Shown: positions 17,851 to 34,399 of the stretch, piece by piece
Layout: each line of letters begins with the position of its first letter
Numbering within the stretch: the first letter of the stretch is position 1
Assembly (NCBI GenBank): GCA_035290625.1
Contig: DATDTY010000001.1
Location: forward strand, 1-34,510
Direction: 5' to 3'
DNA: 34,510 nucleotides
DNA from: Candidatus Nanoarchaeia archaeon
Lineage (GTDB): Archaea > Nanobdellota > Nanobdellia > Woesearchaeales > DATDTY01
Position numbers and translations under genes: made by a program
Notes under the pieces: generated by a model
The model's input: the letters and a program-made list of their open reading frames with translations, nothing else
Databases searched by the model: none
What the model was told of the DNA's origin: nothing

Positions 17851-17867
17851 GCTGCAGATAGGCATCC

Positions 17868-18064
17868 GGCTTCCCTGAAAATGTAGTTGCCGTCAATTCG
17901 TGAGGCTCTTATACGCTGAGACGCCAAACCGACAAGGGGGTCGTCCCACCCGGGGAATGTCGGTCCTCCAGAAGATCTTTGCAGCCGAGCCGGTGGCTAG
18001 CGAGCAAGCTCGCATTGCTCGCTTGCAAGCCACAGCAACCTCGAAGAGATTTTCAGGGAAGCCC
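17868..18064 (+). mobile_element. Structured intergenic element, copy E1
   Basis: 15-bp perfect IR GGCTTCCCTGAAAAT (17868-82 / 18049-63); 9-bp direct repeat TAGGCATCC (17859-67, 18065-73); shared core with the other copies. Confidence 0.85.
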
Positions 18065-18079
18065 TAGGCATCCTAAACC

Positions 18080-18087
18080 TTTAAATA
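18080..18087 (+). promoter_or_regulatory. Archaeal BRE/TATA box
   Basis: AAACCTTTAAATA about 27-30 nt before the ATGs at 18107/18110. Confidence 0.6.
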
Positions 18088-18106
18088 GAATATCTTTCTG
18101 TGATTA

Positions 18107-19750
18107 ATGATGAACACGAAGGTTCGACCAAAACTTCTGCTGCTCTGCGCATTCTTGATTCTTGCCCTGTTTGCAGCACAGATTACCTTTCCCGAAGAAA
18201 CATTTGTTGGGAAAGCCGCAGATCTGCCTGAATCAGATGCTTGTGAAGAGGCTGGCATCTTATTTTGCGGACTGATGGTCAGCAGGGATATTGTAAGCTC
18301 GAAGTTCACATCCATGGAACTCAGAGGGATTATTGACGAGACTACTTTGTATCCGCCTCTTGACAACTGGGAAACCGGCGATTGGAATGAGGACGACTAT
18401 ACTCAGGAAATACAGTACCCTGGACCTGACTTCCGCCTTGAGTTTGCTGAAGATCCAGGAGTTCGCGCATGCGGCCTTGAGGATGTTGTTGAAGAATTAA
18501 GAGAAGTAGCAGAAGAGATAGCATTTTTCAGGCTTTTGAAGGAAGGAGGGTATTATGATTCAAGGATCCATCATGTGGATAGAAGGTATCTCAATGAAGA
18601 GGAGCTTCCTGAGTTTGATCCAACATATACAGGGCGCCTTGCAGCAGATTTTTTGGAGCAATGCTCGGAGAATCCGGGGCTGGGAGGCCTGCATCCTCAG
18701 GAAGGAGGGACATTTGCAGACATCTATGGGCGGATTCCAACAGGAAGCTGCGCAATCATTGTTAACCGGGTCATAGACTTGCAGCTTTCAATACTTGAAA
18801 GGAAAAAGGAGGATATCCTGCGGTCTCATGTTCGGGAGGGAAGGTATGCTCCATTCACAGCGGAAGATTTTAATGAAGGGACTGAGGTCAGTGATACAGA
18901 CATATTTGAAGGGGCTAAGAGATTCGCCAGGAATTTTGACAGCGTATTTGATAGATGCAGAGTTTTCTTTAATAGATATAACGGAGATGCATCTGAGGAT
19001 ATCCTCTTTTCTCTCAAGCAAAGGTATTACGGGTATGCGTGTTCTGCATCAAAATCTGTATTTAGGCAATTTAACCCCCCTGAGGACGCACCACCAGTGG
19101 AAAGCCCAATTTATGGAAACGAACAGGGCATTTGTTTAGGCATATCCTCCACAGTCAACAGATTTTTCAGTGATGGAAAGTTCGTGGGAGGCGACTGTAA
19201 GATATCTCAGAGAGAATATGCTGACATGATAAGAGGTGAAGGATGCTTTGAAGTTCCCTGCCAGACCTTTAGCGAATTATTAACAGCAGTATACCCAAGA
19301 GGGAGCCATTCACCCCTCTCAGAGACGACGAGATTCCATCGTGAGCAGAATCAGGAACTGAAGGAATGTATGGCGAGAGAGGGGACCCTAGAAAGGAGAG
19401 GCACGCTGTTTGCGAGATGGTTTGAGTATACTAATCCACAATCTCTGCTGCAAATCGAGGAGCAGGAAATAAATTATTTTGATCTTCTCGATCGAATACT
19501 CGATGGCGAAACGCCTATGATATCAATTGTCGGCACTGCTTTGGGGCCCTCCCATTCAATTTTTGCGCATTCCTGTGATGATGTAGGCCTTATTGAGGTA
19601 TTTGATCCTAACTTCCCCGAAGATACACGTTATCTCAGATACACAGGATCAGGCACGTTTATGGAGCCAACGTTCTTGGAACCCGTCATTATAAGACATG
19701 TTGAGTCTCCTTACACCCCCAGAAACATCTGCCATGAGGAATCTCCTTGA
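18107..19750 (+). CDS. Exported acidic Cys-rich protein with probable C-terminal papain-like peptidase domain
   Basis: Signal/TM segment at N-terminus; GICLGIS (Cys), SHSIFA (His), VFDPN (Asp). Confidence 0.65.
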   Translation: MMNTKVRPKLLLLCAFLILALFAAQITFPEETFVGKAADLPESDACEEAGILFCGLMVSRDIVSSKFTSMELRGIIDETTLYPPLDNWETGDWNEDDYTQEIQYPGPDFRLEFAEDPGVRACGLEDVVEELREVAEEIAFFRLLKEGGYYDSRIHHVDRRYLNEEELPEFDPTYTGRLAADFLEQCSENPGLGGLHPQEGGTFADIYGRIPTGSCAIIVNRVIDLQLSILERKKEDILRSHVREGRYAPFTAEDFNEGTEVSDTDIFEGAKRFARNFDSVFDRCRVFFNRYNGDASEDILFSLKQRYYGYACSASKSVFRQFNPPEDAPPVESPIYGNEQGICLGISSTVNRFFSDGKFVGGDCKISQREYADMIRGEGCFEVPCQTFSELLTAVYPRGSHSPLSETTRFHREQNQELKECMAREGTLERRGTLFARWFEYTNPQSLLQIEEQEINYFDLLDRILDGETPMISIVGTALGPSHSIFAHSCDDVGLIEVFDPNFPEDTRYLRYTGSGTFMEPTFLEPVIIRHVESPYTPRNICHEESP

Positions 19751-19854
19751 TCTGCCACTCGTGTAAGACGTGAAGGCCTCAAACTCTGAACAGAAGATGA
19801 TTATAGTGAAGGTTAGGATGAAGGGCACAAGTGAACCGCTTACCCTGAACTGCG

Positions 19855-20538
19855 TCACTCCACTGTCTTTGACGTGTCAACCTCTATGCCTTCCTTTGTG
19901 ATGTCGAAAGGAAACGTCTTGTCAGGAATTTTTGTTCCCCTCATCTTGATCACTTCGAGCGCCCTGTTTCTTACTCCTTTCTGCTTCCTGTGGTAAAGAA
20001 AGATGATCCCATCCACCTCAAACTCCATCGCTGCAGTCACGCTTTCATCAGTCACATTTCCCTGGCTTGTAAGCACAGCAGTGCAGTCCCATTTGTTGAT
20101 CAGCTCGAATAACGCAAGCGCAGCCTCCTTCTTTGTAAGCTCATCCTCATACAGCAGCACAAATGATGTTATTGAATCAATAACCAGCCTCTTCGCCTTC
20201 ATCTTTTCGATGATATGCTCAATAATGCCCCCCCCTTCAACCAGCACCTTCTTTACCTGCTCAGGAGTATACTCAAGGAATGAGAACTTCCCTTCTTTCT
20301 CGTATTTCGCCAGATCCCAGCCAAATTCCAGCATCGACTCGTATACCTTTTCCTTCTTCTCTTCAAAAGTGATGTAGATCCCAGATTCTCCCTTCTTAAA
20401 TCCCTCTACAAGGAATTGGATGGCAAAGATGCTTTTTCCCGAGCCAGCGGTTCCCGCAACAAGATTGATAGAATTCTTCTGAAACCCGCCTTGCAGCAGC
20501 GTATCAAGCTTGGAAATTCCTGAAGAGACCCGCGGCAT
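19855..20538 (-). CDS. KaiC/RAD55-like RecA-superfamily ATPase (single domain)
   Basis: SSGISKLDTLLQGG, GTAGSGKS, YITFEE, RLVIDS, VIKMRG. Confidence 0.92.
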   Translation of the reverse strand: MPRVSSGISKLDTLLQGGFQKNSINLVAGTAGSGKSIFAIQFLVEGFKKGESGIYITFEEKKEKVYESMLEFGWDLAKYEKEGKFSFLEYTPEQVKKVLVEGGGIIEHIIEKMKAKRLVIDSITSFVLLYEDELTKKEAALALFELINKWDCTAVLTSQGNVTDESVTAAMEFEVDGIIFLYHRKQKGVRNRALEVIKMRGTKIPDKTFPFDITKEGIEVDTSKTVE

Positions 20539-20541
20539 TGC

Positions 20542-21264
20542 CTACCCCTCTTTCTTAAAGTCCTTCTCGAACAAAGAAAAGGGCAGTTGGTCATGGAATA
20601 TCTTGACGCCTTTTCCATCTATGGTAAAGGGGTAGATGTCAAGCATATGGTCCTGGTTCCGCATTTTTGCTATCGTAAGGATGCGCTCAAATGACGAGGA
20701 TCTCCGCACCTTTGAGAGGAGGATCAGCCCATCGAAGAGAAAGTCCTCAGGCTCATACTCAAGCTCATCAAGATGCGTAAAGGGCTTCTCTGCTGTGGCC
20801 ACAAGCGTGACACTCGCTTCTTTCATTCGCAGGATAAAGTCAAGCACTTCCTTCCTGTAGTCCATCTCCCCTGCCACATGGATATAGCCGAAGAGGGTCA
20901 AAGAATCCAGCACGACGCGTTTGATCCGCTTTTTCTTGATGATCTCAAGAGGAGTGACAATCGACATCAGCTTTTTTGACGAGATTGACTGTTTGATGAA
21001 GGTAAGCAGGCCTTTCCGTTCCAGATCATCCAGGCCGGGGTATATCTCCCTGCCCGTCTCGCGGATCGAATCAACTTCTTCCTCTGAGGTTATGTACAGC
21101 CCGGGCTCCCCAAGCTTGGCTCCAGCAATCATGAACTGCATCGTCATCATTGTTTTTCCGGTTCCAGGCGCGCCAGTCACAAGGACACAGTTGCCCTGAA
21201 GAATTCCGCCATAGAGAATCTCATCCAGCCCCGGAATGCCTGTTTTTATCCTTGCATGTTGCAT
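20542..21264 (-). CDS. KaiC/RAD55-like RecA-superfamily ATPase (single domain)
   Basis: KTGIPGLDEILYGG, GAPGTGKT, RVVLDS, IAKMR; start reassigned to 21264. Confidence 0.92.
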   Translation of the reverse strand: MQHARIKTGIPGLDEILYGGILQGNCVLVTGAPGTGKTMMTMQFMIAGAKLGEPGLYITSEEEVDSIRETGREIYPGLDDLERKGLLTFIKQSISSKKLMSIVTPLEIIKKKRIKRVVLDSLTLFGYIHVAGEMDYRKEVLDFILRMKEASVTLVATAEKPFTHLDELEYEPEDFLFDGLILLSKVRRSSSFERILTIAKMRNQDHMLDIYPFTIDGKGVKIFHDQLPFSLFEKDFKKEG

Positions 21265-21298
21265 AGACCAGCTACCAGCACAACTGATATAAAAAGAT

Positions 21299-21661
21299 TT
21301 AGGTCTTTGAGAGCCTGTCAGGCCCATTGAAGAACACAGCAAAAAACCCGGCAGCAAGGGCAAGATCCCTCACCATCACATCATTATATCCAAGATTGAT
21401 GGCAATAAAGAGCACATGGATAAAGGCAATGAAAGCTGCAACCCTCACAATAAATCCTGACAGGAGCAGAAGGCTCAAAGCAATTTCAAATACTCCATTT
21501 GCAGCGACAAGCAGGGTTGTGTTTGCAACAGCATCAGCCCAGCCAGGAACATAGGAAGCCCAGTTGTCCGGAGACGCCACCTGCCACACCCCAAACCAGA
21601 GCAGAAAGATTCCCAGGCTTATCCTGAGGATTACTGGCCCATAGGACGAATCAATCTTCAT
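21299..21661 (-). CDS. DoxX family membrane protein
   Basis: LRISLGIFLLWFG...GVFEI...RDLAL; start chosen by TATA spacing (21682 and 21673 also possible). Confidence 0.8.
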   Translation of the reverse strand: MKIDSSYGPVILRISLGIFLLWFGVWQVASPDNWASYVPGWADAVANTTLLVAANGVFEIALSLLLLSGFIVRVAAFIAFIHVLFIAINLGYNDVMVRDLALAAGFFAVFFNGPDRLSKT

Positions 21662-21704
21662 CCAACCACTCATATTCCTCATCTTTTTAAGGGTTTTTAT
21701 TTTG

Positions 21705-21883
21705 ATGGAGGTTGGTGCGAAATTGAAGGTTGCCATCATTTTGTGAGCAACATCGCTAATGAATAAGCATCGACATCGAGGGGGATGCCCCATGGAGGAC
21801 GAATGTCGATTATCACAGAGATATATGCCATGTGCGAACTCGATGGCAACCCGAGCATTGCGAGAATTTCGCACCAACCCCAT
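21705..21883 (+). mobile_element. Structured intergenic element, copy E2
   Basis: IR GGTTGGTGCGAAATT (21710-24 / 21865-79); inner stem GGTTGCCATC/GATGGCAACC; ATCGACAT...ATGTCGAT arm; flanking direct repeat unclear. Confidence 0.8.
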
Positions 21884-21927
21884 TTTTACACATAAACTTT
21901 TAAACCTGTTGCAGTTTCAGGTACACC

Positions 21928-22218
21928 ATGAATATCATCACTGATGAAAAGCTTGAAAAGTATTTTTCCATCACGCAAAGAGCGCTTCTGAAGGCAAAGG
22001 CAGTAAAAAAGAAAGCAGAGATTGACTTTGAAGAGAAGGCGCTTGAATTCCTTGACATGGCCCAGCGCTACTTTGACGATGCAAAACATTTTGAGAAGAA
22101 AGGGGATATCGTGACTTCCTTTGCCTGCCTGAACTATGCCCACGGCTGGCTTGATGCAGGAGCGCGGCTTGGCCTCTTTGATGTTGGAGGAGACTCAACA
22201 CTTTTTACTGTGGATTAG
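21928..22218 (+). CDS. DUF357 domain protein
   Basis: MAQRYFDDAKHF...FACLNYAHGWLDAGARLGLF. Confidence 0.9.
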   Translation: MNIITDEKLEKYFSITQRALLKAKAVKKKAEIDFEEKALEFLDMAQRYFDDAKHFEKKGDIVTSFACLNYAHGWLDAGARLGLFDVGGDSTLFTVD

Positions 22219-22682
22219 CGCACTCTCTTCACTATGCCCAGCACATCAGCGGCATGGCCTTTCGGCTCCACACTCCTCCAATGCTCTGCAATCCTTCCCT
22301 GAGGATCAATAAGCACAGTGCTTCTGATAACTCCTTCAATCTCCTTGCCGTACATCATCTTCTTCCCCCAGGCGCCATACTGCTTAATCACTCTTTTGTC
22401 AGGATCGCTTAAGAGCCTTACTGTTAAGCCGTGCTTTTCAATGAAGTTACAATGGCTTTTCCCAGAATCCGGGCTGATTCCAAGCACAACTGCATCGCTC
22501 TTGTCAAACTCTTTGCTAAGCCCCGAGAACTCGATTGCCTCGATGGTGCACCCCGGCGTGTCGTCTTTTGGATAGAAATAAACAACAACAAATCTCCCTT
22601 TCAGGTCTTTCAGGCAGACATCTTTCTCATCCTGATCCCTGAGGCAAAAATCAGGCGCTTTCATCCCTTTGGTGATCTCCAT
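22215..22682 (-). CDS. bcp: Peroxiredoxin, BCP/PrxQ type
   Basis: YFYPKDDTPGCTIEA, LGISPDS, RSTVLID. Confidence 0.93.
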   Translation of the reverse strand: MEITKGMKAPDFCLRDQDEKDVCLKDLKGRFVVVYFYPKDDTPGCTIEAIEFSGLSKEFDKSDAVVLGISPDSGKSHCNFIEKHGLTVRLLSDPDKRVIKQYGAWGKKMMYGKEIEGVIRSTVLIDPQGRIAEHWRSVEPKGHAADVLGIVKRVR

Positions 22683-22785
22683 GGCGAACAGTCAGAAACA
22701 GGATATATTTCCATGTTGTGATTTTTGCTGATTCCAAGAGCACAGATTCACAAACTTTATAAACGCCATCACAAGCCTTCACACT

Positions 22786-23493
22786 ATGAAACTCGAAGGT
22801 AAGTTTGAAAGTATAAGCATTGGGCTTGTTGGTGTGCTGGTTCTCCTCGTTGTTGCAAACCAGGCCCAGATATCGAGCATTTCAGGATCTACAACAGGAT
22901 CCAGCATAGGACTGGGTTCAGGCTTGAGGCTCGGCAGAGGCACTGCTGATCTTGCTTCAGTGGACATCAATGAGATCAGGTCAACAGCGCAGGGCATTGC
23001 AACGCTTTTCCCTGTAGAAAAATTATCAACAGCAGAAGGGGCAATGCAAGCCATGTTTCCGACAGGAACTCCAGAGTATGGAGATGCGATGGGAGTGACA
23101 TTTGATGATCCTATCGGAGCCTTGACAAAGCTCTCAAACGCCTATCCTGCATTGGACCAACAGGCAAGAGGAAATCCAGAGGTTTGGCAACGATACATTA
23201 ATCTTGCTTCAGAGCCAAGAGGCGTAAGCTGCGAGTTCTGCTGCGGTGTCGGAGCAGCAGGCATCTCAAAAGATGGCCGCTCACTCTGCGGCTGCCAGCA
23301 TGCTCCTGCTCTTTTAAGCGTCACGCTCTGGCTGCTTATGAACACAGACTACAATGACGCGCAGATACTGCAGGAAGTATACCGCTGGAAAACCCTTTTC
23401 TTCCCGAGGAATATGATTGAGCTTGCAGGCAAGGTTGCAGGCGGAGACAGTTCAGTGTTAAATGATTTGCCAGGAATGGTAGGAGGATGTTAG
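22786..23493 (+). CDS. Membrane-anchored Cys-rich putative metal-binding protein ending MVGGC
   Basis: N-terminal TM; CEFCC and CGCQH motifs; C-terminus LNDLPGMVGGC. Confidence 0.75.
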   Translation: MKLEGKFESISIGLVGVLVLLVVANQAQISSISGSTTGSSIGLGSGLRLGRGTADLASVDINEIRSTAQGIATLFPVEKLSTAEGAMQAMFPTGTPEYGDAMGVTFDDPIGALTKLSNAYPALDQQARGNPEVWQRYINLASEPRGVSCEFCCGVGAAGISKDGRSLCGCQHAPALLSVTLWLLMNTDYNDAQILQEVYRWKTLFFPRNMIELAGKVAGGDSSVLNDLPGMVGGC

Positions 23494-23494
23494 C

Positions 23495-23713
23495 ATGAAA
23501 AAGGAAGTATTGATAACCATTGTCTTGGCTGTCTTGGTATTGGTATCTTTGGTTCAGGCTCTCCAGCTGAGAAGCCTTAAAAGCCAGATTGAGACAGGTA
23601 GCTTTTCTGTGCAGACAAAGGCTGCTGCTACGCCAGTGGCGTCAGGAAGCGCCGGAAGCCCAGCATTGCCGCAGAGCCTGGATAACCTTCCGCAGATGGT
23701 CGGAGGATGTTAA
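23495..23713 (+). CDS. Small membrane-anchored protein ending MVGGC
   Basis: N-terminal TM, low-complexity linker, LDNLPQMVGGC. Confidence 0.75.
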   Translation: MKKEVLITIVLAVLVLVSLVQALQLRSLKSQIETGSFSVQTKAAATPVASGSAGSPALPQSLDNLPQMVGGC

Positions 23714-23786
23714 TCTTTTGTGAAGGGGCAGATTCTTTGTTCTTTTCTGCTTCTCATCTCTCAAGCATTGCTGCATTTGGGGATGG

Positions 23787-24248
23787 ATGATGAATGGTTT
23801 AATTCTTGGGATGTTATCTATGGTCATGCTTCAGGCTTGTGCTCAGGCCAGTGAGGATAACCCTGATATGCTGGCCATCAACCTAATGGACTATAAGACC
23901 TTAGCATTCCATATGCATCCTCATCTTGAGATTGAGATTCTTGGGGAGCAGTATGTCATCCCAGCAAATATAGGCGCATCGCGCCAGGCGATTCGCGTGA
24001 TCCACACCCATGAGCCTGACGGAACACTGCATGTTGAGTCTCCTTATCCTCATCAGTTTGTACTGGCAGACTTTTTTACAATCTGGGGAGAACGTTTTGA
24101 TAAAACGTGTATCTTTAATTACTGCATTGATGAAGAGCATGAACTCCTTGTGTTTGTCAATGGAGGGCAGAGCGATTTGTATGAGAATACCCCCCTCAGG
24201 GAAGACGATGAGATAAAGATAGTTTATAGGAAGTCTATAGGAGAGTAA
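23787..24248 (+). CDS. Exported His-motif putative metal-binding protein
   Basis: HMHPHL, IHTHEPDGTLHVES, LADFFTIWG. Confidence 0.75.
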   Translation: MMNGLILGMLSMVMLQACAQASEDNPDMLAINLMDYKTLAFHMHPHLEIEILGEQYVIPANIGASRQAIRVIHTHEPDGTLHVESPYPHQFVLADFFTIWGERFDKTCIFNYCIDEEHELLVFVNGGQSDLYENTPLREDDEIKIVYRKSIGE

Positions 24249-24275
24249 AGAACAAGAACCAAGAAGGGAATAGAC

Positions 24276-25271
24276 ATGAAGCTGCGATATCGTCTCATCC
24301 AAAGTGCAGGCGCTTTAAGCATAGCTTTAGCACTCCTCATAACCCTCTTTGCGCAGTCTGCAACAGCCCAGGATCTGCCTGTCGGCCTGCAGAAGATCAA
24401 TGAATACAACCAAAAGCAGGCAGAGGATATAGCTCTCAAAGTATCATTTGTTGTCGCCTTTATTGCAGGAATCCTCGGCATCTTCTCTCCATGCATCCTG
24501 CCGTTCCTTCCTGCCTACTTTTCTTACACATTCAAGGAAAAGCGGAATATAACTTTTATGACACTGGTGTTCTTTCTCGGATTCTCAGTCTCCTTTGTTA
24601 GTATGGGAGTGATCGCTGGCACGCTTGGCTATACAGCATTAAGCGTGATCCAGCCTGCGTGGCTTGTCAGGATAGCTGCTGTTGCAATCATTATCTTTGG
24701 CATCATGACCTTATTGGGAAAAGGGATATCCTCGTTCGTGAAGTTCAGGGTTCATTCCCGGAACGATATCCCAGGAACGTTCTTATTAGGCATATTCTTT
24801 GCTGTCGGATGGTCTGCCTGCTTAGGGCCTATATTAGCAGGAATACTCGGAATCGGAGCCGTATTGGGAAATCCTGTGCTGAGCGGATTCCTTCTGTTTG
24901 CATATTCGCTTGGAAATCTGCTGCCATTATTCGTATTATCTGTCTTTTATGATAGATTCAACTTAGGGAAGAGCAGGCTTATCAGAGGAAGGATCCTTCA
25001 TTTTTCATTGATGGGAGAAGGATATGAGGTTCATTCAACAAACCTGATCTCAGGAGTCTTGTTCTTGGTTTTGGGAGGGGTCATGCTGGCGTATAATGGA
25101 ACAGCTGCCTTGAATGCATTGGATCCTCTGAGGCTGTCAGAGTTCTTCTATTCAGGCCAGAATGCTCTGATTAGCTGGAAGTACAGCCAGATTGCCGGGA
25201 TTATGGCTTTGGCGGTGTTTGCGATAGGTGTTGGCTGGTTTTTGTGGAAGAGAAAAAAGGATTCTGAATAG
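24276..25271 (+). CDS. ccdA: CcdA/DsbD-type thiol-disulfide membrane transporter
   Basis: AGILGIFSPCILPFLP and WSACLGPIL conserved Cys motifs; multi-TM. Confidence 0.88.
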   Translation: MKLRYRLIQSAGALSIALALLITLFAQSATAQDLPVGLQKINEYNQKQAEDIALKVSFVVAFIAGILGIFSPCILPFLPAYFSYTFKEKRNITFMTLVFFLGFSVSFVSMGVIAGTLGYTALSVIQPAWLVRIAAVAIIIFGIMTLLGKGISSFVKFRVHSRNDIPGTFLLGIFFAVGWSACLGPILAGILGIGAVLGNPVLSGFLLFAYSLGNLLPLFVLSVFYDRFNLGKSRLIRGRILHFSLMGEGYEVHSTNLISGVLFLVLGGVMLAYNGTAALNALDPLRLSEFFYSGQNALISWKYSQIAGIMALAVFAIGVGWFLWKRKKDSE

Positions 25272-25302
25272 ATTTAAATATGGTCTGTGCTTTGCAATAT
25301 GA

Positions 25303-26121
25303 ATGAAAGAAGAAGTGCTAGAGCTTCTGAGAAAGCATACCAGACATGAATTTGTTGCGTTAACCCCTAAGGGAAATGCTTCGGTGTATGCTGCATTTGA
25401 GACAGTCAGGCAATTAAGCCAGCAGAATGTTGTGCTGATTCCAGACCAGGGCGGCTGGGTAACCTACCGCCAGATTCCCAGGAAGATGAAGATGCTTGCC
25501 TTTGAATATAAAACAGATTACGGTGTCCTGGACGCTAAAGGCCTGCCTTTGCACCTCCAAAATGTGAACTCCCTCATCTATTCCAACCCTGCAGGCTACT
25601 ATGCCGATCAGCCAAGCCAGGAAATCTATAAGGAATGCTCCCAGCGTTTTCCTGTCATCATGGAAGTGTCAGGCTGTCTTGGCTCAGAGACCTGCGATGG
25701 AAGGCATGCTGATATCATGATAGGAAGCTTTGGCAAATGGAAGCCGATCAGCATAGGGACAGGAGGCTTCATCTCCTTCAAGGCTGAGGAAGCCTATAAG
25801 GCCTTCCTGGAGAGAAAAGAGCATAAAGAGCCAAGCATAGAGGAGACAAAGCTCCATGACCTCTATGCCAAGCTTGAGGCAGCTCCTTCAATCTACAAGA
25901 GGTATTACGAAGCTGTCCAGCAGATAAAAAAGGATTTGGGGAATTTTGAGGTCCTCCATCCGAAAAGCCAGGGTATCAATGTCATTGTGAAGTTCAATAC
26001 TGAAGATGAGAAGAAGCTTTTGGTCCAGTATTGCGAAAAGAATAAATATGAATACAAACTCTGCCCAAGGTATATCAGGGTGAATGAGAACGCATTGAGC
26101 ATTGAGGTGAAGCATACATGA
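25303..26121 (+). CDS. PLP-dependent aminotransferase-like protein (DegT/DnrJ/EryC1/StrS-like, short)
   Basis: GSFGKWKPISIGTGG; VLIPDQGGW. Confidence 0.75.
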   Translation: MKEEVLELLRKHTRHEFVALTPKGNASVYAAFETVRQLSQQNVVLIPDQGGWVTYRQIPRKMKMLAFEYKTDYGVLDAKGLPLHLQNVNSLIYSNPAGYYADQPSQEIYKECSQRFPVIMEVSGCLGSETCDGRHADIMIGSFGKWKPISIGTGGFISFKAEEAYKAFLERKEHKEPSIEETKLHDLYAKLEAAPSIYKRYYEAVQQIKKDLGNFEVLHPKSQGINVIVKFNTEDEKKLLVQYCEKNKYEYKLCPRYIRVNENALSIEVKHT

Positions 26122-26363
26122 AGAGGGTTATGTTCCTGGTGGTCATTTTCTTACTGATAGGCTCTTTGATGATCCTAGGGGCGAGAGACATCTCCCTATC
26201 CAACTCAACAGGCAGAAAAACCTTTTTCCTCAGCTTTCTTGAGTGGATGGGAGTTGTGGGAAAGAGCAGCTATGATACTGCCGGCTATGCAATAAAGCAG
26301 GATTGGCTTCCGAACGTGAGCCAGAACAGCAGCAACAGCTCAATCCGGAAGTTGCTCCGATGA
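26118..26363 (+). CDS. Small membrane protein
   Basis: ATGA overlaps at both ends; N-terminal TM. Confidence 0.65.
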   Translation: MKRVMFLVVIFLLIGSLMILGARDISLSNSTGRKTFFLSFLEWMGVVGKSSYDTAGYAIKQDWLPNVSQNSSNSSIRKLLR

Positions 26364-26764
26364 ATGAGCCAGAGTCCATGGACACTCTTGTGTACTTTAC
26401 CAACAGAACCATTGGCAATGGCCATATCAAGGCGTGGGTATATAAGCAGCAGTGCTCCCAGTGCAAAGGAATGATGGGTAAGCCGAAGGGCGCAAAGGGG
26501 AAGGTAAAGATCAGGGCGCAGAATTATGTCTGCAATGAATGCGGATTTTCAGTTCCCAATGAAGAATATGAGGGCGGGCTCAAAGTTCAGGTCAAGTACA
26601 CCTGCCCTTCCTGTAGCAACAGGGGGGAGGCAGAGGTTCCTTTTAGGAGGAAGCGCATCAATGGTGTTGAAACCGTGCGCATCGAATGCAGCCACTGCCA
26701 CGCATCCGTTGACATTACAAAGAAGATGAAGGAGAAGAACGCAGGCGAGCAGGAAAAGCAGTGA
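26360..26764 (+). CDS. Double zinc-ribbon protein
   Basis: Four CxxC pairs (CSQC, CNEC, CPSC, CSHC); ATGA coupling at 26360. Confidence 0.8.
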   Translation: MNEPESMDTLVYFTNRTIGNGHIKAWVYKQQCSQCKGMMGKPKGAKGKVKIRAQNYVCNECGFSVPNEEYEGGLKVQVKYTCPSCSNRGEAEVPFRRKRINGVETVRIECSHCHASVDITKKMKEKNAGEQEKQ

Positions 26765-26788
26765 GGCCGAAAGCTTTGTGGATATAAC

Positions 26789-27592
26789 ATGCCAAAAGAC
26801 TGGAGCGACGAGTTTGTGCACCACTGGAATTATTTCATAGGTCCTGCCAGAGCATCTCCTTCTGACTTAAGGTTCATAAAAAAGAAGATTCTCGAGAAAG
26901 ACAGGGATGCAAAGGTGCTTGTTTTGGGAGCAACACCTGGATACAGGAACCTGTGCGGAGAGTTGGACATTCCTGTAACACTTATTGACTTCAAACGATA
27001 CAATTATGAGTACCTCTCAGATGAAGTCAAGAATAAACCAAAAGAGAGGTTTGTGGAAGGTAATTGGATGGATACAGTGCTGCCTGAGAAGTTTGATATA
27101 ATCCTCGCAGACAATGTTCTGAATGTTGTTCCAACTAAAGAGAATATACGGATTGTCCTTAAAAACGTAGCCAGTATGCTAAAGAAAGATGGGCTGTTCA
27201 TGCCGAGAACTTATGTAAGGGGAAAAAATGAAAGGATTGATCCTGAAAAGGTCATTAAGGAGTACAGGAAAAAGCGGGACGGAAGTGACCTTTACACATG
27301 GCTCTCAAGGGATTTATATCTGGCTGCATATGATTTTAAAGAGGATGTTGTCAGATTTAAGGATATCTGGAAGGTTATAAAGAAGATGCATGACAATGGC
27401 CTTTTTACTGATGAAGAGCTCAAAGAGTGGAGGAACAACTCGTTTGAGAATAGGGAATTCCATTTTATAATCCCTGTAAAAGAAGAGATTGAGGAGATTC
27501 TTTCAGAATTCTTCAATATTAAGCAGGTGTTCTGCGGAACCGAAGAATATATACACGAAACACTTCCGTTGTATGTACTTACATTGAAATGA
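26789..27592 (+). CDS. Class I SAM-dependent methyltransferase
   Basis: VLVLGATPG, LIDF, FDIILAD, MLKKDGLF. Confidence 0.82.
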   Translation: MPKDWSDEFVHHWNYFIGPARASPSDLRFIKKKILEKDRDAKVLVLGATPGYRNLCGELDIPVTLIDFKRYNYEYLSDEVKNKPKERFVEGNWMDTVLPEKFDIILADNVLNVVPTKENIRIVLKNVASMLKKDGLFMPRTYVRGKNERIDPEKVIKEYRKKRDGSDLYTWLSRDLYLAAYDFKEDVVRFKDIWKVIKKMHDNGLFTDEELKEWRNNSFENREFHFIIPVKEEIEEILSEFFNIKQVFCGTEEYIHETLPLYVLTLK

Positions 27593-27634
27593 ACCTAATA
27601 GCCCAGGTGGCAGAGGCAGAGTTGTTCCGGCTCA

Positions 27635-27859
27635 CTTTATGTTAAGCATGATCTTCGTGAAAAAGGTATTGGAACAAAGCCGTTGCAGTATGTTGAGAAA
27701 TATGCTAAAAAGAAAGGATTGAAAGAATTGAAATTAGGTTCAACTATAACCGCTTTAGATTTTTACAGAAATAGAGGTTACAAAACCATAAAGAAAAAAT
27801 ATTATGTGGTCCTTCAAAGTGTTAGAATACCTTGCATCCTGATGTCAAAAAGATTGTAA
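27635..27859 (+). pseudogene. GNAT acetyltransferase C-terminal fragment (not in the ORF track)
   Basis: LYVKHDLREKGIGTKPLQYVEKYAKKKG...ALDFYRNRGY; no start codon; in-frame TAG at 27599. Confidence 0.75.
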
Positions 27860-27891
27860 AGGCACCAAAACTCAATTGAAAGTAACAACCC

Positions 27892-28482
27892 TTAGATAAA
27901 CTCCTCTTTCTTCCGCTTTCTAAGCAGCAAGCCTATACCAAAGGCTGCTGCAAGCGCTGCAAGCAGGATAAGGGGGCCGGTAAGAGAGCCTTGATCAGCA
28001 GCGTTCTGTCTGCACTTGTAGAATCTTGTGTCACAAGCTCCGTTCTTACAGTCGCTGTCCTCCTCGCATTCTATCTTTGAAAGAGGCAGGACAGTCATGC
28101 TTCTCTTTGCATCAGGGCAGATCATTGCCGGATCATCAATCTTGTCTGTTATGATAACTGCTTCAATGCAGGTAAGGTAGTCAAATGTTCTCACACCTGC
28201 AATGGGGGGCCTGATTTTCCATGGAAACACTGCCTTGCCGGTTGCATTAGGCCCAAGCTGGAGGTTGGGATGGTAGGAAGCAAATATTGTCTTGGTCTCT
28301 GCCTCCTGGAGAAGGACAGAAGCGACATGCGTTGTAGCATTGATATTATTCCATATCAGGAAGGTTATGTTTGCTTCAGTCCCTTCCCTGCAGTGGGGAT
28401 CGCTGCACTGTATAGTCGAGGAAAAAGCCGCAGATACACTCTGGCTTGCAAGAACCAATAAAACGATGGCAAGGAAACGCAT
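27892..28482 (-). CDS. Exported protein with C-terminal membrane anchor
   Basis: Signal peptide, Cys-rich CEEDSDC...C...C, TM followed by RKRKK. Confidence 0.8.
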   Translation of the reverse strand: MRFLAIVLLVLASQSVSAAFSSTIQCSDPHCREGTEANITFLIWNNINATTHVASVLLQEAETKTIFASYHPNLQLGPNATGKAVFPWKIRPPIAGVRTFDYLTCIEAVIITDKIDDPAMICPDAKRSMTVLPLSKIECEEDSDCKNGACDTRFYKCRQNAADQGSLTGPLILLAALAAAFGIGLLLRKRKKEEFI

Positions 28483-28539
28483 TCCAGCGGAGTTAACAGA
28501 GGGGATATTTAAGTCTTTTGAACCTGCCTGAAATCAATC

Positions 28540-28701
28540 GGCGCCATTGAAAGGCAATGCAATGCCTCATCATGAGCCATTGAAGCAAGGTAGGAGCAGC
28601 GACAAAGGGGTTGCTCCACACGGGAAATGTCGCCTAGCAGCAGAATCTGTGATTGGCGAATCTGGCATTGCCGAGCGAAGCGAGAGCTTTTCAATGGCGC
28701 C
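28540..28701 (+). mobile_element. Structured intergenic element, copy E3
   Basis: IR GGCGCCATTGAAA (28540-52 / 28689-701); GGCAATGC/GCATTGCC; GCGACA...TGTCGC; CAATCG at 28535-40 and 28705-10. Confidence 0.8.
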
Positions 28702-28710
28702 CGCCAATCG

Positions 28711-28910
28711 GCTCAGTAGAAAGTCAGCCGGCATCAGGCTCGCTTGCGCTTGTATTCGTGTATGCTGACACCCCCGAAGGTGCTAAAAAGAGCTACGCTC
28801 TTTTGGCACACCAAAACGCCCGACGGCGTTTTGATTGGGGCAACCCTCTGTCAGCAGCGGTTATGATTGCGAAGAAGCTCGCAGAAAGGATGCCGGACTT
28901 TCTACAGAGC
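28711..28910 (-). mobile_element. Structured intergenic element, copy E4 (inverted, with apical insert)
   Basis: IR GCTC(A/T)GTAGAAAGT; 11-bp direct repeat CCCGCCAATCG (28700-10, 28911-21); closely similar to E6. Confidence 0.88.
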
Positions 28911-28968
28911 CCCGCCAATCGTTAAATTTAAATATTCAGAAAAGCCCAGCCCCTTCGGGGATGGAAAG

Positions 28969-29097
28969 ATGAAAAAGCAGAAATCAGCCCAAGTTCCAGA
29001 AACTGAGGAGAGGAAGTGTCCAGAGTGCGGAAGCAGGGATATTGGCACTGATGAGACTGAGATGTACTGCAAAAAGTGCGGCTATGTCTTTGAGTGA
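28969..29097 (+). CDS. Small TFIIB-type zinc-ribbon protein (42 aa)
   Basis: CPECGS...MYCKKCGYV; TATA at 28927. Confidence 0.75.
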   Translation: MKKQKSAQVPETEERKCPECGSRDIGTDETEMYCKKCGYVFE

Positions 29098-29218
29098 TGG
29101 CTGCTTCTTGATGGATAAATTCTACAAAACCTGCCCTAGTATACTTTTTTCACCATCAGCCCGCACAAAATTTATAAAGGATGATTGCTCAGAATAAGTA
29201 AGGGGGGTGGGTAAGATT

Positions 29219-29344
29219 ATGAACCAATCTAAAATCCATGACATCGTTGTGGTTGAAGATGGTTCGCTTATCCATAAGCAGGTCGAGCAAAGGCATGGGT
29301 TGCTCTTTATGCGAATAAAGAAGCGGCATGTCTTTGTGACCTGA
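29219..29344 (+). CDS. Possible small protein (41 aa, MNQSKIHDIVVVEDG...), not in the ORF track
   Basis: TTTATAAA at 29171 and G-rich SD-like GGGGGTG upstream of the ATG. Confidence 0.4.
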   Translation: MNQSKIHDIVVVEDGSLIHKQVEQRHGLLFMRIKKRHVFVT

Positions 29345-29466
29345 CTTGTTCTGCAGTTAAGAGTGGCTAAGAGTGGCTCTTGGGAGAACAGCACCTGTTT
29401 GTAAGCTTCCTTACAGAATAATCTACTGCCCCAAGATATGCCAAAGAAAGATTCTAAGATGAGATC

Positions 29467-29709
29467 CTAATGATACCGTAGAACACGTATCTCTTCATGC
29501 TGTTTCTGCTCTAAAGGCAGGTTTGCCTGCACTGCAACTTCAAAGGGATCTCCTTTATGATGCAGCAGAACAAGGTTTGCCTGCGTCTCAAAATAGACAA
29601 AATGCCTTTGCCATCCGTGCTTGTCAGGCTGGTAGAAGAGCTTTTCAGTATTCAGCTGCTCCGCAAGCCTAATGAACTCTTTCATTCCGTTGATTTGCAG
29701 AATAGGCAT
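29467..29709 (-). CDS. Hypothetical protein (80 aa)
   Basis: ORF with TATATAAA 30 nt upstream. Confidence 0.65.
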   Translation of the reverse strand: MPILQINGMKEFIRLAEQLNTEKLFYQPDKHGWQRHFVYFETQANLVLLHHKGDPFEVAVQANLPLEQKQHEEIRVLRYH

Positions 29710-29753
29710 AGCCCTCTTTGGGCGTGCATCATTTATATAGTTTCTTGTTTTAG

Positions 29754-29967
29754 GCAGCGTTCAAAATTTGGGTTGCCGCCTGCTTGTGAGCAACCTACCT
29801 AGAGTAGGCGCATCGACAAGGGAGTTGCCCCAGCCAAAACGCCATCGGGCGTTTTGGTGTGCCAAAAGAGCGTAGCTCTTTTTAGCACCTTCGGGACATG
29901 TCGATATACACAGATATGCAGAGATTGCGAACTTGGCGGCAACCGCTGAATGAGATTTTGAACACAG
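29754..29967 (+). mobile_element. Structured intergenic element, copy E5 (with apical insert)
   Basis: IR GTTCAAAAT (29759-67 / 29955-63); GGTTGCCGCC/GGCGGCAACC; 10-bp direct repeat CTTGTTTTAG (29744-53, 29968-77). Confidence 0.85.
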
Positions 29968-30141
29968 CTTGTTTTAGAGCCGAGATCATGATTACGAATT
30001 TCAAAATGAACCTCAGATTGCCTATAAGCACAAAATTTTCAGGTTGCAAAGCCCAGGGTATCAGCTTTTATCCTGATTTCCAAAAAGTTTATATACTAAC
30101 CACAAGTAGTTCACAGTAAATCCTAATACCGAGGTGAAAAA

Positions 30142-30288
30142 ATGGTGCAAGGGAGATGTATGAAATGCAAGAAGCAGGTTGATATCAAGAACGGTAAGGA
30201 GACGACCATGAAGAATGGGATGAAGGCAGTAAAGGGAGAGTGCCCATCTTGCGGCACAAAGGTTTTCAGGATTCTTGGAAAGGCTTAG
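30142..30288 (+). CDS. DUF5679-like small basic zinc-binding protein (48 aa), not in the ORF track
   Basis: MVQGRCMKCKKQVDIKNGKETTMKNGMKAVKGECPSCGTKVFRILGKA; SD GAGGTGA at 30131. Confidence 0.88.
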   Translation: MVQGRCMKCKKQVDIKNGKETTMKNGMKAVKGECPSCGTKVFRILGKA

Positions 30289-30295
30289 GCCTTTT

Positions 30296-31060
30296 ATGAT
30301 TGACTGCCATTGCCACCTTGACCACCCTCTCTTTGATAAGGACAGAGACCAGGTGGTTGAGGCAGCAAAAACATCTGGGATTTCTGTTATCATTACCAAT
30401 GGCATAGACCCTGGAACAAATAGGAAATCCCTGGAGCTTGCCAGGAGGTATAGCATTGTAAAAGCTGGCCTTGGCGTCTATCCCAGAAGCGCAATCAAGC
30501 ATGAGACTGAGCAAGAGGGAAAAAAGTACACCTCCTTTGATATTGGTGAGGAGCTTGGGTTTATCACAGATCATAAGAAGGAGGTTATTGCTATAGGGGA
30601 GGTTGGCCTGGATGGTGTCCGGGGCATCGATACTCCCCAAAAAAAGGACTTTGAACTCATGATTGAGCTGGCAGAAAAGCTCAAAAAACCCATCATTGTG
30701 CATTCGCGCAAGGCTGAAGCTGAAGTGCTTGCCTTGCTTGAGACCTCAAAGCTAAAAGTAATCCTGCACGCCTTTCATGGCAAAAGGAGGCTCGTCCAGA
30801 AGGCAATTGACAATGGCTGGTATTTCTCAGTCTCTACCCATATAGCCAGGAGCCAGGAGATGCAGTACATAGCTAAGGAAGCTCCCTTGTCAAAGCTGTT
30901 TCCAGAGACAGATGCTCCGTTCCTCAGCCCATTTCCAGGAAAGCGCAATGAGCCTGCTTTTGTTATTGAAGCAATTAAGAAGATTGCCGAAATAAAAGGC
31001 CTGGATATGGAGGAAACATCCAAGAATATCTGGAAAAATTACCAGAAGGTGTTTGTGTAG
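30296..31060 (+). CDS. tatD: TatD family hydrolase/DNase
   Basis: IDCHCHL, AIGEVGLD, IVHSRKAE, ILHAF, ETDAPFL. Confidence 0.93.
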   Translation: MIDCHCHLDHPLFDKDRDQVVEAAKTSGISVIITNGIDPGTNRKSLELARRYSIVKAGLGVYPRSAIKHETEQEGKKYTSFDIGEELGFITDHKKEVIAIGEVGLDGVRGIDTPQKKDFELMIELAEKLKKPIIVHSRKAEAEVLALLETSKLKVILHAFHGKRRLVQKAIDNGWYFSVSTHIARSQEMQYIAKEAPLSKLFPETDAPFLSPFPGKRNEPAFVIEAIKKIAEIKGLDMEETSKNIWKNYQKVFV

Positions 31061-31103
31061 GGAGCAAGCAACCTTAATATAGAAGGCTTCATTCCCCCTC
31101 TTT

Positions 31104-31931
31104 ATGCACAGGAGAGCTTTTCTGAGCCTAACCCTCACAGCAGCGGCTGCTGCCTGCACCAAGATGCAGGGATTAGAAATGACCATTGCTGATGCATCGA
31201 AAGACCACAGCAGAGCATTGCAGCTTGGCCGCCAGTGGATGGCTGAAGGGAAATTCGGCGAAGCCAGGGCTGCACTAGAGGTTGGTGTGCAGGGATATAC
31301 GCTCCGGCAAGACTTGAACCTGAATCTCTACATGTATAACGAGGGCCAATTTCAGCCCCTAACCCAAGAACAAAAGGACGTGCTCATGCAGTTCTATGAT
31401 GCCTTGGGCCATGCCTGCGCAGCAGCGCAGCAATTCTCCATTGCTTTGGGGTATTTCCAGCAGACAGTCTTCATCGATCCCAGCAACCCGGAGCATTTTA
31501 TGGCATTTGCAAAAACCAGCGCTGAGATATTTAATGATGAAGCAGCAGAGGGATTAAGGCTTCCTTATGAAACCCTCTTAAAGCGTCATGTTCGAGTCAT
31601 CCGATACCCTCCAATGGTTGTGATGAATGCAAGCGTAGCTGCATATTTAGAATGTGACTCCCGGCCTGGCCAATGGCAACTTGCGAATCAGGTATTCCAG
31701 GAATACACGAGATATCTAAAGGATGTTGCCATGGAGCTGTCACGAAGGGACATAGCATGTAGCATCCAAATCCCTAATGAAGAGAGCAACCAGGAAAAAT
31801 GGGATATCGCAAGGCAGATGTACCAGCAAGACCCTTATTTTACAGTCCGATATCAGAATTATCTCCCAGGGATGATCCATTTTGCAATCCCCCTGCAAGA
31901 AAAAAGGCCTAATACTTCAAACAGCCTGTAA
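31104..31931 (+). CDS. TPR-like helical protein with Tat/lipoprotein-like signal
   Basis: MHRRAFLSLTLTAAAAAC; ALGHAC...ALGYFQQTVFIDPSN. Confidence 0.7.
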   Translation: MHRRAFLSLTLTAAAAACTKMQGLEMTIADASKDHSRALQLGRQWMAEGKFGEARAALEVGVQGYTLRQDLNLNLYMYNEGQFQPLTQEQKDVLMQFYDALGHACAAAQQFSIALGYFQQTVFIDPSNPEHFMAFAKTSAEIFNDEAAEGLRLPYETLLKRHVRVIRYPPMVVMNASVAAYLECDSRPGQWQLANQVFQEYTRYLKDVAMELSRRDIACSIQIPNEESNQEKWDIARQMYQQDPYFTVRYQNYLPGMIHFAIPLQEKRPNTSNSL

Positions 31932-31947
31932 GATGCCAGGAATAACT

Positions 31948-32144
31948 GGCTTCCCTGAAAATGGCGTTGCCGTCAATCTGCGAGGCTCTTGACCTTAAAG
32001 ACTGAAAACCGACAAGGGAGTTGCCCCCATGGAGGAATGTCGGTCCCCCCGTCATATGCGCGGCCGAACCGACGTGCTCCGAAGGAGCGCCCGGAAATGT
32101 TTGGCATTTCCGACGGCAACCTCGAAGAGATTTTCAGGGAAGCC
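31948..32144 (+). mobile_element. Structured intergenic element, copy E7
   Basis: Same 15-bp IR as E1 (31948-62 / 32130-44); 8-bp direct repeat GGAATAAC (31939-46, 32145-52). Confidence 0.88.
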
Positions 32145-32189
32145 GGAATAACGCAAAGCCTTTTATACCTGTTTTGCCTATAAGCCTCT

Positions 32190-32498
32190 ATGAAACTGAC
32201 TCTGGACACCAAAGAGGACTCGCATGAGCATTTGAGGCACGTGATTGCGATGCTTCAGAGTATTATCGGAGGTAGTGAGCAGGACGTCCATGAACCTGGA
32301 CAGCAGCCTGTAAGTCAGGACCAAGGCTTTGTCAATCTGTTTGGTGATGCTGCAATCAGCCCATCGCCTCCTGAGCAGAAAAAGGATTCCGGCCTTGATG
32401 TTGACCCTGCAAAGATCCAGGACATCCTGCAGAAGGCAAGCTTAGAAAAGGCGCGCCTGTCTGAGACCAAAGAGTTCAAGATGGAGGAATATCTTTAG
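32190..32498 (+). CDS. Hypothetical protein (102 aa)
   Basis: MKLTLDTKEDSHE...; TTTTATA at 32161. Confidence 0.75.
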   Translation: MKLTLDTKEDSHEHLRHVIAMLQSIIGGSEQDVHEPGQQPVSQDQGFVNLFGDAAISPSPPEQKKDSGLDVDPAKIQDILQKASLEKARLSETKEFKMEEYL

Positions 32499-32546
32499 GA
32501 TGCATTTCATCTAACGCTTCTCGCCTTGCAGAACGAATTTAGAAAT

Positions 32547-32993
32547 CTAAAATCTCCACACCCTCTTCCCGTTTCTATGTATCGCTCTCACCCTGTGGAT
32601 AGGAATAAAAATCTCCTTGCCACGCTCATGGATATGGATGATATTCTTCTCGATGCGCCGTATCTGGGCTGCCTTGAACTCTATCTCCTTTTTTCTCACC
32701 TTATCCAGATACCTGATCCTGAACTCGTTCCTTTGCGGATGCGCCTGAACAGAATTGAGAATCTTCAGAGTGCCCTGCTCCAATCCTCCCAAAGGATCAA
32801 ACTCCTTGAGGATAATCCCTGAGAACGTAAGTATCGCCAAGCCAATAAACAGGCTGACAAAAGGCTCTTCAAGTATAGGCAACGCTCCAAACCCTTCCCA
32901 TATCCCACGCCAGAAGAAGATGATTCCTGTCGCTCCAAGAAGTGACCAGAGAAAATGCTTGTCTGACTCACGCAACTGATAGATACTACTCAC
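32547..32993 (-). CDS. Membrane protein with C-terminal MJ1316/DUF504-like domain
   Basis: Two TMs; IRYLDKV...FIPIHRVRAIHRNGKRVW resembles the IPxHR motif. Confidence 0.7.
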   Translation of the reverse strand: MSSIYQLRESDKHFLWSLLGATGIIFFWRGIWEGFGALPILEEPFVSLFIGLAILTFSGIILKEFDPLGGLEQGTLKILNSVQAHPQRNEFRIRYLDKVRKKEIEFKAAQIRRIEKNIIHIHERGKEIFIPIHRVRAIHRNGKRVWRF

Positions 32994-33044
32994 CTCTTTT
33001 GGATGCTTTCAGGCATTCGGGTATAAATACGTTATGGTTTTGTG

Positions 33045-33187
33045 GCTCAGTAGCAAGTCCGGCATCATTCCTGCGAGCTTCTTCAGCTCCATAAGCAGTG
33101 CTGACAGAGGGTAGGCCCCTTCGGGGGTGTCAGCATACACGAATACAGGCGCAAGCGAGCCTGATGCCGGCTGACTTGCTACTGAGC
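33045..33187 (+). mobile_element. Structured intergenic element, copy E6 (shortest, no insert)
   Basis: 14-bp IR GCTCAGTAGCAAGT; CCGGCATCA/TGATGCCGG; GCTGACA...TGTCAGC; direct repeat GGTTTTG (33036-42, 33189-95). Confidence 0.88.
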
Positions 33188-33272
33188 AGGTTTTGAGCTG
33201 CCGCCCAGGTATGGAAAGTTTTAATAACCCTCCATGAACCTTTCAAAAAATAATTATAGGGAGGTGCGCAGC

Positions 33273-34375: not shown

Positions 34376-34399
34376 AAGTCAACACGCGTGTGTTGACTT
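34376..34399. repeat. 10-bp perfect hairpin overlapping the transposase stop codon
   Basis: AAGTCAACAC-GCGT-GTGTTGACTT. Confidence 0.8.

What the first reader, a model, noticed from the sequence alone, without database searches (positions are those of the whole stretch)
17859..33197. Variable-length target-site duplications indicate the elements are mobile
Seen: each copy has its own flanking direct repeat: TAGGCATCC (9 bp, E1), CCCGCCAATCG (11, E4), CTTGTTTTAG (10, E5), GGAATAAC (8, E7), GGTTTTG (7, E6), CAATCG (6, E3). These are often offset by one to a few nt from the inverted-repeat ends; E2 is ambiguous. Known: most DDE transposases make near-fixed-length TSDs flush with the TIR, HUH (IS200/605) elements make none, and variable TSDs with ragged ends typify target-primed reverse transcription. 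Inference: insertion at staggered cuts, possibly through an RNA intermediate (SINE-like), which would be unusual in archaea. No RT is present in this window, and post-insertion decay could also explain the length spread.
Basis: partly seen in the sequence, partly recalled or inferred. Interest (0 to 1): 0.85.

Follow-up and report, generated by a model that had tools for sequence, protein, structure and literature searches.

The report
Promoter-targeted IS5-type mini-transposons, fixed duplications
The repeats are small non-coding DNA transposons that leave fixed 8- or 9-base duplications, as IS5-type insertion sequences do, so they are not RNA-copied elements; the unusual parts are that they land just upstream of gene promoters and share a conserved folded interior of unknown role.

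Summary
The seven elements are real and mobile, but the duplications are not ragged or continuously variable. With ends set at the 15-bp GG…CC terminal inverted repeats, flush duplications (≤1 mismatch) are 9 bp in 28 and 8 bp in 20 of 102 well-defined genomic copies; 7, 10 and 11 bp total 4. Length follows subfamily. One empty site with a single 9-bp target copy exists in the assembly. The genome holds a multi-copy 967-bp IS5-family element. Its relatives carry near-identical ends and 8- or 9-bp duplications. The only reverse transcriptase found belongs to a diversity-generating retroelement. Verdict: IS5-type MITEs, not SINE-like. Two features remain unusual. Elements and autonomous IS5 copies sit 15–18 bp upstream of TATA boxes. 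The interior is a covarying fold found in 43 of 149 order-level relatives, with a mirror covariation suggesting a purine triplex. Against: no resident IS5 matches any subfamily's ends exactly, and co-occurrence is not significant. This scan reported the family and its promoter placement before, on other contigs of this genome.

The parts
17868..18063 (+). E1, MITE subfamily A (TIR GGCTTCCCTGAAAAT, 15/15), with an extra hairpin near the 3' end; flush repeat 10 bp (9/10) at 17858-17867 and 18064-18073; TATA-like box starts 17 nt to the right
21708..21881 (+). E2, MITE with TIR GAGGTTGGTGCGAAATT; decayed 9-bp flush repeat (6/9; 7/9 with the variant at 21887)
28540..28701 (+). E3, MITE subfamily C (TIR GGCGCCATTGAAAGG); decayed 8-bp flush repeat (5/8), in the register typical of this subfamily
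28710..28911 (-). E4, MITE subfamily B (TIR GGCTCAGTAGAAAGT), core on the minus strand, with a ~77-nt double-hairpin insert in the apical loop; perfect 9-bp flush duplication at 28701-28709 and 28912-28920, overlapping E3's last base
29753..29969 (+). E5, MITE subfamily D (TIR GGCAGCGTTCAAAAT, right end degenerate, 12/15), same ~77-nt insert as E4; 7-bp flush repeat, 8-9 bp if the right TIR lost 1-2 bases
31948..32144 (+). E7, MITE subfamily A with an accessory double hairpin; 9-bp flush duplication (8/9); TATA-like box starts 17 nt to the right
33044..33188 (+). E6, MITE subfamily B (TIR GGCTCAGTAGCAAGT); 8-bp flush repeat (7/8); TATA-like box 17 nt to the left, on the minus strand
7115..7188 (+). 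3' remnant of an eighth copy (subfamily E right TIR), outside the finding's range

Best explanation
[quoted passage not shown] SHOWN: 15-bp GG...CC terminal inverted repeats; flush duplications of 9 bp (most subfamilies) or 8 bp (subfamily C); one empty site; IS5-family elements with near-identical ends and the same duplication lengths in the same order; insertion points 15-18 bp upstream of TATA-like boxes for MITEs and autonomous IS5 alike. INFERRED: a transposase dimer binds the two ends, cuts the target with an 8- or 9-nt stagger, and gap repair makes the duplication. Different IS5 variants, several not found in this assembly, moved different subfamilies. The target is the DNA just upstream of the BRE of a promoter occupied by TBP/TFB, which spares both neighbouring genes. 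The conserved interior fold is under selection but its role is not shown; my best guess is a single-strand (more likely DNA) fold that helps bring the ends together or insulates against read-through.
For: Duplication lengths. Empty site: C81:20858-20937 aligns at 94% across the junction of the element at C44:3382-3547, within 765 + 170 bp of 95-98% identity, with one target copy. Resident IS: C49:19040-20006, 967 bp, perfect 16-bp TIR, 284-aa protein hitting NF033579 (IS5 family) at E 3.6e-28; invariant D114, D187, Y238, R241, E245, K252 in an alignment of 14 homologues, one N-terminally truncated; 4 left and 3 right ends at 99-100% identity, two cross-contig end pairs sharing 8-bp flanks. Of 14 autonomous elements with both flanks, 7 have 9-bp (6 exact), 2 have exact 8-bp, 1 has 6/8 and 4 have no duplication. 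Best TIR matches to IS5 in relatives: subfamily B 14/15, C, D and F 13/15, A and G 12/15. In G083 an IS5 and the resident MITE share the first 11 TIR bases. Promoter spacing. PMC3119063 (passages read) states that archaeal MITEs share the ITR and duplication length with their helper transposon and are otherwise unrelated to it.
Against: The resident IS5 matches subfamily consensus TIRs at only 8-11 of 15. It makes 8-bp duplications while its closest subfamily (B) mostly has 9. The NF033579 score (98.9 bits) is under the curated cut-off of 140, and Pfam and PDB sequence searches found nothing. MITE-positive genomes are not significantly richer in IS5: 17 of 42 versus 35 of 106, p=0.45; high-copy genomes 7 of 12, p=0.11 (G131 left out). 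About half the well-defined copies lack a clean duplication, and duplication decay does not correlate with TIR mismatch (rho 0.07). No empty allele of any window element was found. A strongly conserved interior is not expected if only the ends matter.
Confidence: 0.88

Rival explanations
1. SINE-like retroelements copied through RNA by target-primed reverse transcription.
For: Strongly structured interior (z -3.1 and -7.0; covariation); the apical loop usually ends in a UNCG-like tetrad; the genome has one RT; a few copies have 7- or 10-12-bp repeats.
Against: Discrete flush 8/9-bp duplications tied to TIR type; paired inverted ends matching IS5; no tail seen in the copies printed; the RT has a DGR template/variable repeat pair, and the nearest element on its contig is about 9 kb away; element orientation is unrelated to the adjacent promoter side (34 versus 33); mismatches are not significantly enriched at junction positions (p 0.23 and 0.40).
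Confidence: 0.03
2. REP/PATE-like elements moved as single-stranded DNA by a Y1 (HUH) transposase.
For: Six Y1_Tnp matches in the genome; interior stems are almost purely Watson-Crick (1342 of 1426 cells, 28 G-T), with tandem G-A pairs and GNA-triloop hairpins that favour ssDNA folding (recalled knowledge).
Against: The Y1 genes carry their own IS200-type ends and R1 finds no copy in their loci; PATEs and IS605-type elements have no TIR and make no duplication (PMC3119063 passages), whereas these have both.
Confidence: 0.03
3. Two-layer element: the folded core is an independent functional module (ssDNA or RNA) that hitch-hikes on whichever transposon ends it acquires; the IS5 ends are only its current vehicle.
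For: The same core occurs inside a second, TG...CA-type outer inverted repeat with 5-bp duplications in about five copies, an end type that also bounds other small elements in G076 and G080; chimeras between subfamilies keep their helices; the fold is conserved across 43 of 149 genomes of the order.
Against: This is compatible with the best explanation and does not replace it; no function of the core was tested; no partner transposase for the 5-bp type was found; no RNA data were available.
Confidence: 0.3

Closest known systems
MITEs mobilised by IS5-family insertion sequences (IS903/ISH1-like groups; group assignment recalled, not tested)
   Same: Short, non-coding, GG...CC TIRs shared with a 0.9-1.3-kb single-ORF DDE element; flush 8-9-bp duplications; intergenic, high copy number.
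   Different: At least seven TIR subfamilies share one covarying interior; fixed spacing upstream of TATA boxes; no exact partner in the same assembly.
Haloquadratum MITEs, PATEs and SMRs (PMC3119063, passages read)
   Same: Archaeal transposase-free repeats; MITEs take ITR and duplication length from a helper transposon.
   Different: The passages read describe no conserved interior fold and no promoter spacing; PATEs and SMR-A make no duplication.
SINEs and other target-primed retroelements (recalled)
   Same: Short, structured, non-coding, flanked by direct repeats.
   Different: Here the ends are paired inverted repeats, the duplication is fixed, there is no tail, and the only RT found is a DGR enzyme.
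Ty3/Tf1-type targeting to transcription-initiation complexes in yeasts (recalled analogy)
   Same: Insertion at a fixed distance from a promoter, sparing genes.
   Different: DNA transposon in an archaeon; no tether shown.

Membership tests
IS5-family MITE | Short, non-coding, with terminal inverted repeats | tested here: met
   102 of 177 loci have >=12/15 complementary ends at 130-270 bp
IS5-family MITE | Fixed-length duplication flush with the TIR | tested here: met
   8 bp in 15 of 22 subfamily C copies, 9 bp in 28 of 80 others; 9 bp in 28 of 68 foreign copies
IS5-family MITE | Autonomous IS with matching TIR and duplication length exists | tested here: met
   12-14 of 15 matches for six subfamilies in same-order genomes, with 8/9-bp duplications
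IS5-family MITE | Exactly matching helper in the same genome | tested here: inconclusive
   Resident IS5 matches 8-11 of 15; assembly is in 84 contigs; co-occurrence p=0.45
IS5 family (helper) | DDE triad with Y-x2-R-x3-E-x6-K motif | tested here: met
   D114, D187, Y238, R241, E245, K252 invariant; NF033579 E 3.6e-28 but under the cut-off
IS5-family MITE | Mobilised in trans by the transposase | not testable with these tools
   Needs a transposition assay
SINE / target-primed retroelement | Variable-length duplication with ragged ends | tested here: not met
SINE / target-primed retroelement | Partner RT-endonuclease sharing the 3' end | tested here: not met
   One RVT_1 match, DGR-type; no R1 match in its locus. 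RTs too divergent for PF00078 are not excluded
REP / PATE (HUH-moved) | No TIR, no target duplication | tested here: not met
   definition from PMC3119063 passages
Any Rfam family | Match to a covariance model | tested here: not met
   No match over the elements at E<=5

The most novel reading that the evidence does not exclude
An order-wide lineage of IS5 transposons and MITEs is steered to the upstream edge of archaeal pre-initiation complexes (TBP/TFB contact). The MITE carries a selected single-strand fold, including an intramolecular purine-motif triplex (G·G-C and A·A-T), that acts in transposition or insulation and can move between different transposon-end types.
Probability: 0.25. Interest if true: 0.78.

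Novelty: new variant of a known kind. Interest (0 to 1): 0.42.

Why it matters
The headline claim, SINE-like retrotransposition in an archaeon, falls. What remains matters moderately. A DDE transposon family that inserts at a fixed distance upstream of archaeal TATA boxes would be a prokaryotic parallel to promoter-targeted yeast elements, and would explain how roughly 130 loci per Mb fit into a compact genome. The elements also mark promoters in uncultured lineages. A MITE interior with covarying helices and a possible triplex, conserved across many families, is a concrete, testable structure where MITE interiors are usually thought dispensable.

Tried and rejected
Rfam: no match on the elements. 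BLAST-type search of E7 in 40 relatives: none; only the covariance model reached them. Empty alleles of window elements: none among the joints listed for four contig sets (10 joints were not shown, and contigs drop rare variants). None in 33 metagenome loci: two are the same organism and carry the elements, the rest are <=50% identical in TatD apart from one 21-residue fragment. No RNA holder listed, which says nothing on expression. Y1/IS200 genes, the IS1634 element (C61) and IS481/IS6-like elements: their ends differ from the MITE ends on reading. IS1182 (PF13751) not found. An autonomous element holding the core plus an ORF: not found among TIR pairs 300-5000 bp apart, and R1 found no match in 22 IS5 loci. 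Bridge-RNA-like guide loops: on inspection the large internal loop is shared between copies with different targets; not tested further. A P2-only element with its own duplication: none seen on reading. K-turn: two extra base pairs separate the bulge from the G-A pairs, so rejected by inspection. TIR search around 20 further IS5-like genes gave clear ends in 2. No partner transposase for the 5-bp-duplication type. Co-occurrence of MITE and IS5: not significant. PDB sequence search of the transposase: no hit. Literature searches for archaeal promoter targeting or this family found nothing relevant; the library lacks most subscription journals.
Full report
Observation. All seven elements and their flanking repeats are in the window. 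They belong to one genome-wide family: iterated BLAST gave 177 merged loci in 1.37 Mb (some are halves at contig ends or merged neighbours). An end profile refined on the copies starts GG-C-T and has GAAA at positions 10-13. 102 of the 177 loci have at least 12 of 15 complementary end bases, a length of 130-270 bp and both flanks; the other 75 were left out of the duplication counts.

Duplication length. With ends fixed, flush repeats with at most one mismatch number 1 at 7 bp, 20 at 8 bp, 28 at 9 bp, 3 at 10 bp and 0 at 11 bp. Shuffled pairs give 0.1, 0.05, 0.04, 0 and 0. Length follows the end type: subfamily C has 15 of 22 at 8 bp and none at 9, and the other 80 have 28 at 9, 5 at 8, 2 at 10 and 1 at 7. 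About 50 copies show no clean repeat. In the window: E1 10 (9/10), E2 9 (6/9; 7/9 with a variant seen in other data), E3 8 (5/8), E4 9 (9/9), E5 7 (degenerate right end), E7 9 (8/9), E6 8 (7/8). Taking the longest exact repeat with free offsets gives 2-13 bp on the same copies. In 68 copies from 28 other genomes, 28 have 9 bp (23 exact), 2 have 8, 2 have 10, and 1 each has 7, 11 and 12.

Mobility. In-silico empty sites were searched against the genome and the loci held. Of 13 rows that passed the filter, one site spans fully: C81:20858-20937 lacks the element at C44:3382-3547 and holds one copy of its 9-bp target. It lies within 765 and 170 bp of 95% and 98% identity, so it is a paralogue or a co-assembled strain. 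No empty allele of a window element was found in four contig sets or 33 metagenome loci.

The helper. A scan for long TIR pairs found C49:19040-20006, 967 bp with a perfect 16-bp repeat starting GGCTCG. Its 284-aa ORF hits the IS5 model NF033579 over its length at E 3.6e-28, below the curated cut-off; Pfam and PDB gave nothing. D114, D187, Y238, R241, E245 and K252 are invariant in an alignment of 14 homologues, which is the DDE and YREK pattern (motif name recalled). The element has 4 left and 3 right ends at 99-100% identity, and two cross-contig pairs share 8-bp flanks. Homologues occur in 39 of 300 other genomes of the order. Of 14 autonomous elements with both flanks, 7 have 9-bp and 2 have exact 8-bp flush duplications, 1 has 6/8 and 4 have none. 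Their ends match the MITE subfamilies at 14/15 (B), 13/15 (C, D, F), 12/15 (A, G), 11/15 (E) and 9/15 (E2 type and others). Against this, the resident IS matches only 8-11 of 15, and MITE-positive genomes are not significantly richer in IS5 (17 of 42 versus 35 of 106, p=0.45). Passages of PMC3119063 state that archaeal MITEs share ends and duplication length with a helper that may be missing or broken in the same genome.

Retro and HUH routes. The one RVT_1 match (C68:38030-38677) has an upstream 72-nt repeat whose copy on C11 differs at 11 positions, 10 of them adenines. That is a diversity-generating retroelement. Six Y1 matches have their own IS200-type ends. R1 found no copy of the element in the RT, Y1, IS1634 or IS5 loci.

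Target choice. Read outward from the ends, TATA-like motifs start at 15-18 nt (77 motif starts; overlapping motifs are counted), with none at 1-11 or 26-31. 62 of 102 copies have one at 10-30 nt on either side and only 5 on both. The peak shifts by one base between 8- and 9-bp copies. 52 of 82 outward ORF starts within 120 nt lie at 43-49 nt, consistent with a genome-wide TATA-to-start distance of 28-31. Foreign copies (42 of 68 at 13-20 nt) and autonomous IS5 elements show the same spacing. Free space on the far side is often tens to hundreds of bases, and uniform placement would put about 6 of 41 in a 5-nt band (those 41 were chosen for having a TATA at 12-21 nt, so the unselected histogram is the fairer test). 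Selection explains the gap at 1-11 nt but not the sharp peak. Tethering to TBP/TFB is an inference.

Interior. A covariance model from 43 copies matched 43 of 149 other genomes of the order (one is unpublished G131). In a phylum sample all 18 other matching genomes were of the same order. On 76 aligned matches, 94.9% of cells pair, 32 of 34 pairs show two-sided changes, and slid controls pair at 28-45% (the alignment was fitted to the structure and sequences are related). The fold is a rod: TIR stem, a 6-9-bp stem, tandem G-A pairs, a short stem, a large variable internal loop, a stem, a purine tract and a 3-bp hairpin. Interior stems are nearly all Watson-Crick (1342 of 1426; 28 G-T, 16 A-C), which hints at DNA more than RNA. 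In 82 distinct genome-plus-motif combinations, every T-A pair in the apical stem had an A at the mirror position of the purine tract (15 of 15 and 6 of 6). The reverse is incomplete: 4 and 6 cases have A with a C-G pair (178 copies examined, those not fitting the pattern dropped, not phylogeny-corrected). No single antiparallel register explains both positions; a purine-motif triplex does. This is an inference, untested. The same core also sits inside a second outer TG...CA repeat with 5-bp duplications in about five copies. So duplication length does vary in this genome, but in steps of 5, 8 and 9 set by end type.

Comparison and novelty. It works like, and is, an IS5-type MITE family. It fails the tests for SINE-like and for REP/PATE elements. 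PMC11602168 (passages) reports a Woesearchaea genome with 105 MITEs per Mb; its supplements were not read and may list these sequences. PMC13343696 (passages) has no text on promoters or duplications. PMC11708052 (passages) places IS903 in the IS5 family. Searches found no paper on archaeal promoter-spaced IS5 insertion or on this fold, in a library that lacks most subscription journals. Four earlier notes of this scan reached the same MITE reading on other contigs, two with promoter spacing; I formed my reading before seeing them and tested the spacing afterwards. The lineage (DPANN, Woesearchaeota-like) comes from those notes and from archaeal-type promoters, not from a named record.

Verdict. 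Mobile: yes. Variable duplications and an RNA intermediate: no. Interest 0.42, carried by promoter targeting and the conserved interior.

Noticed in passing
window 34372-34510: Right end of a multi-copy insertion sequence with a GG-starting 12-bp TIR; a full copy lies at C49:1-915 with a zinc-ribbon plus rve-type transposase (IS6-like by recall). The contig ends inside it.
   Followed up: partly
window 28773-28849 and 29819-29895: A 77-nt double-hairpin module (94% alike) is inserted in the apical loop of E4 and E5 and of many other copies across subfamilies. Other accessory hairpins sit at other fixed points, suggesting modular exchange.
   Followed up: partly
L091 versus window after 28830: A second assembly of the same organism has a 32-nt deletion inside E4 between short repeats; strain variant or assembly effect.
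   Followed up: no
G000 C24:6609-6824, C59:7562-7773, C80:3045-3261, C69:7944, C18:20568: MITE core nested in an outer TG...CA inverted repeat with 5-bp duplications; the same end type bounds different small elements in G076 and G080. Helper not found.
   Followed up: partly
G000 C68:38030-39274 and C11:446-517: Diversity-generating retroelement: RT, template repeat and variable repeat with adenine-specific changes.
   Followed up: partly
L061-L089, 5' ends: The ~95-nt leaders of these IS5 elements fold into one or two hairpins that cover the ribosome-binding site, with a G-tract/C-tract pattern loosely like the MITE apex.
   Followed up: no
G000 C25 and C50 contig ends: An IS5 copy sits directly beside a MITE, sharing part of its flank, as E4 does beside E3; successive insertions reuse the same promoter-edge site.
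   Followed up: partly
window 21887 and 26125: Two positions where L092 and three read sets differ from the window (T>G, G>T); possibly assembly errors.
   Followed up: no
window 18107-19750: 547-aa ORF right of E1 with no Pfam match.
   Followed up: no
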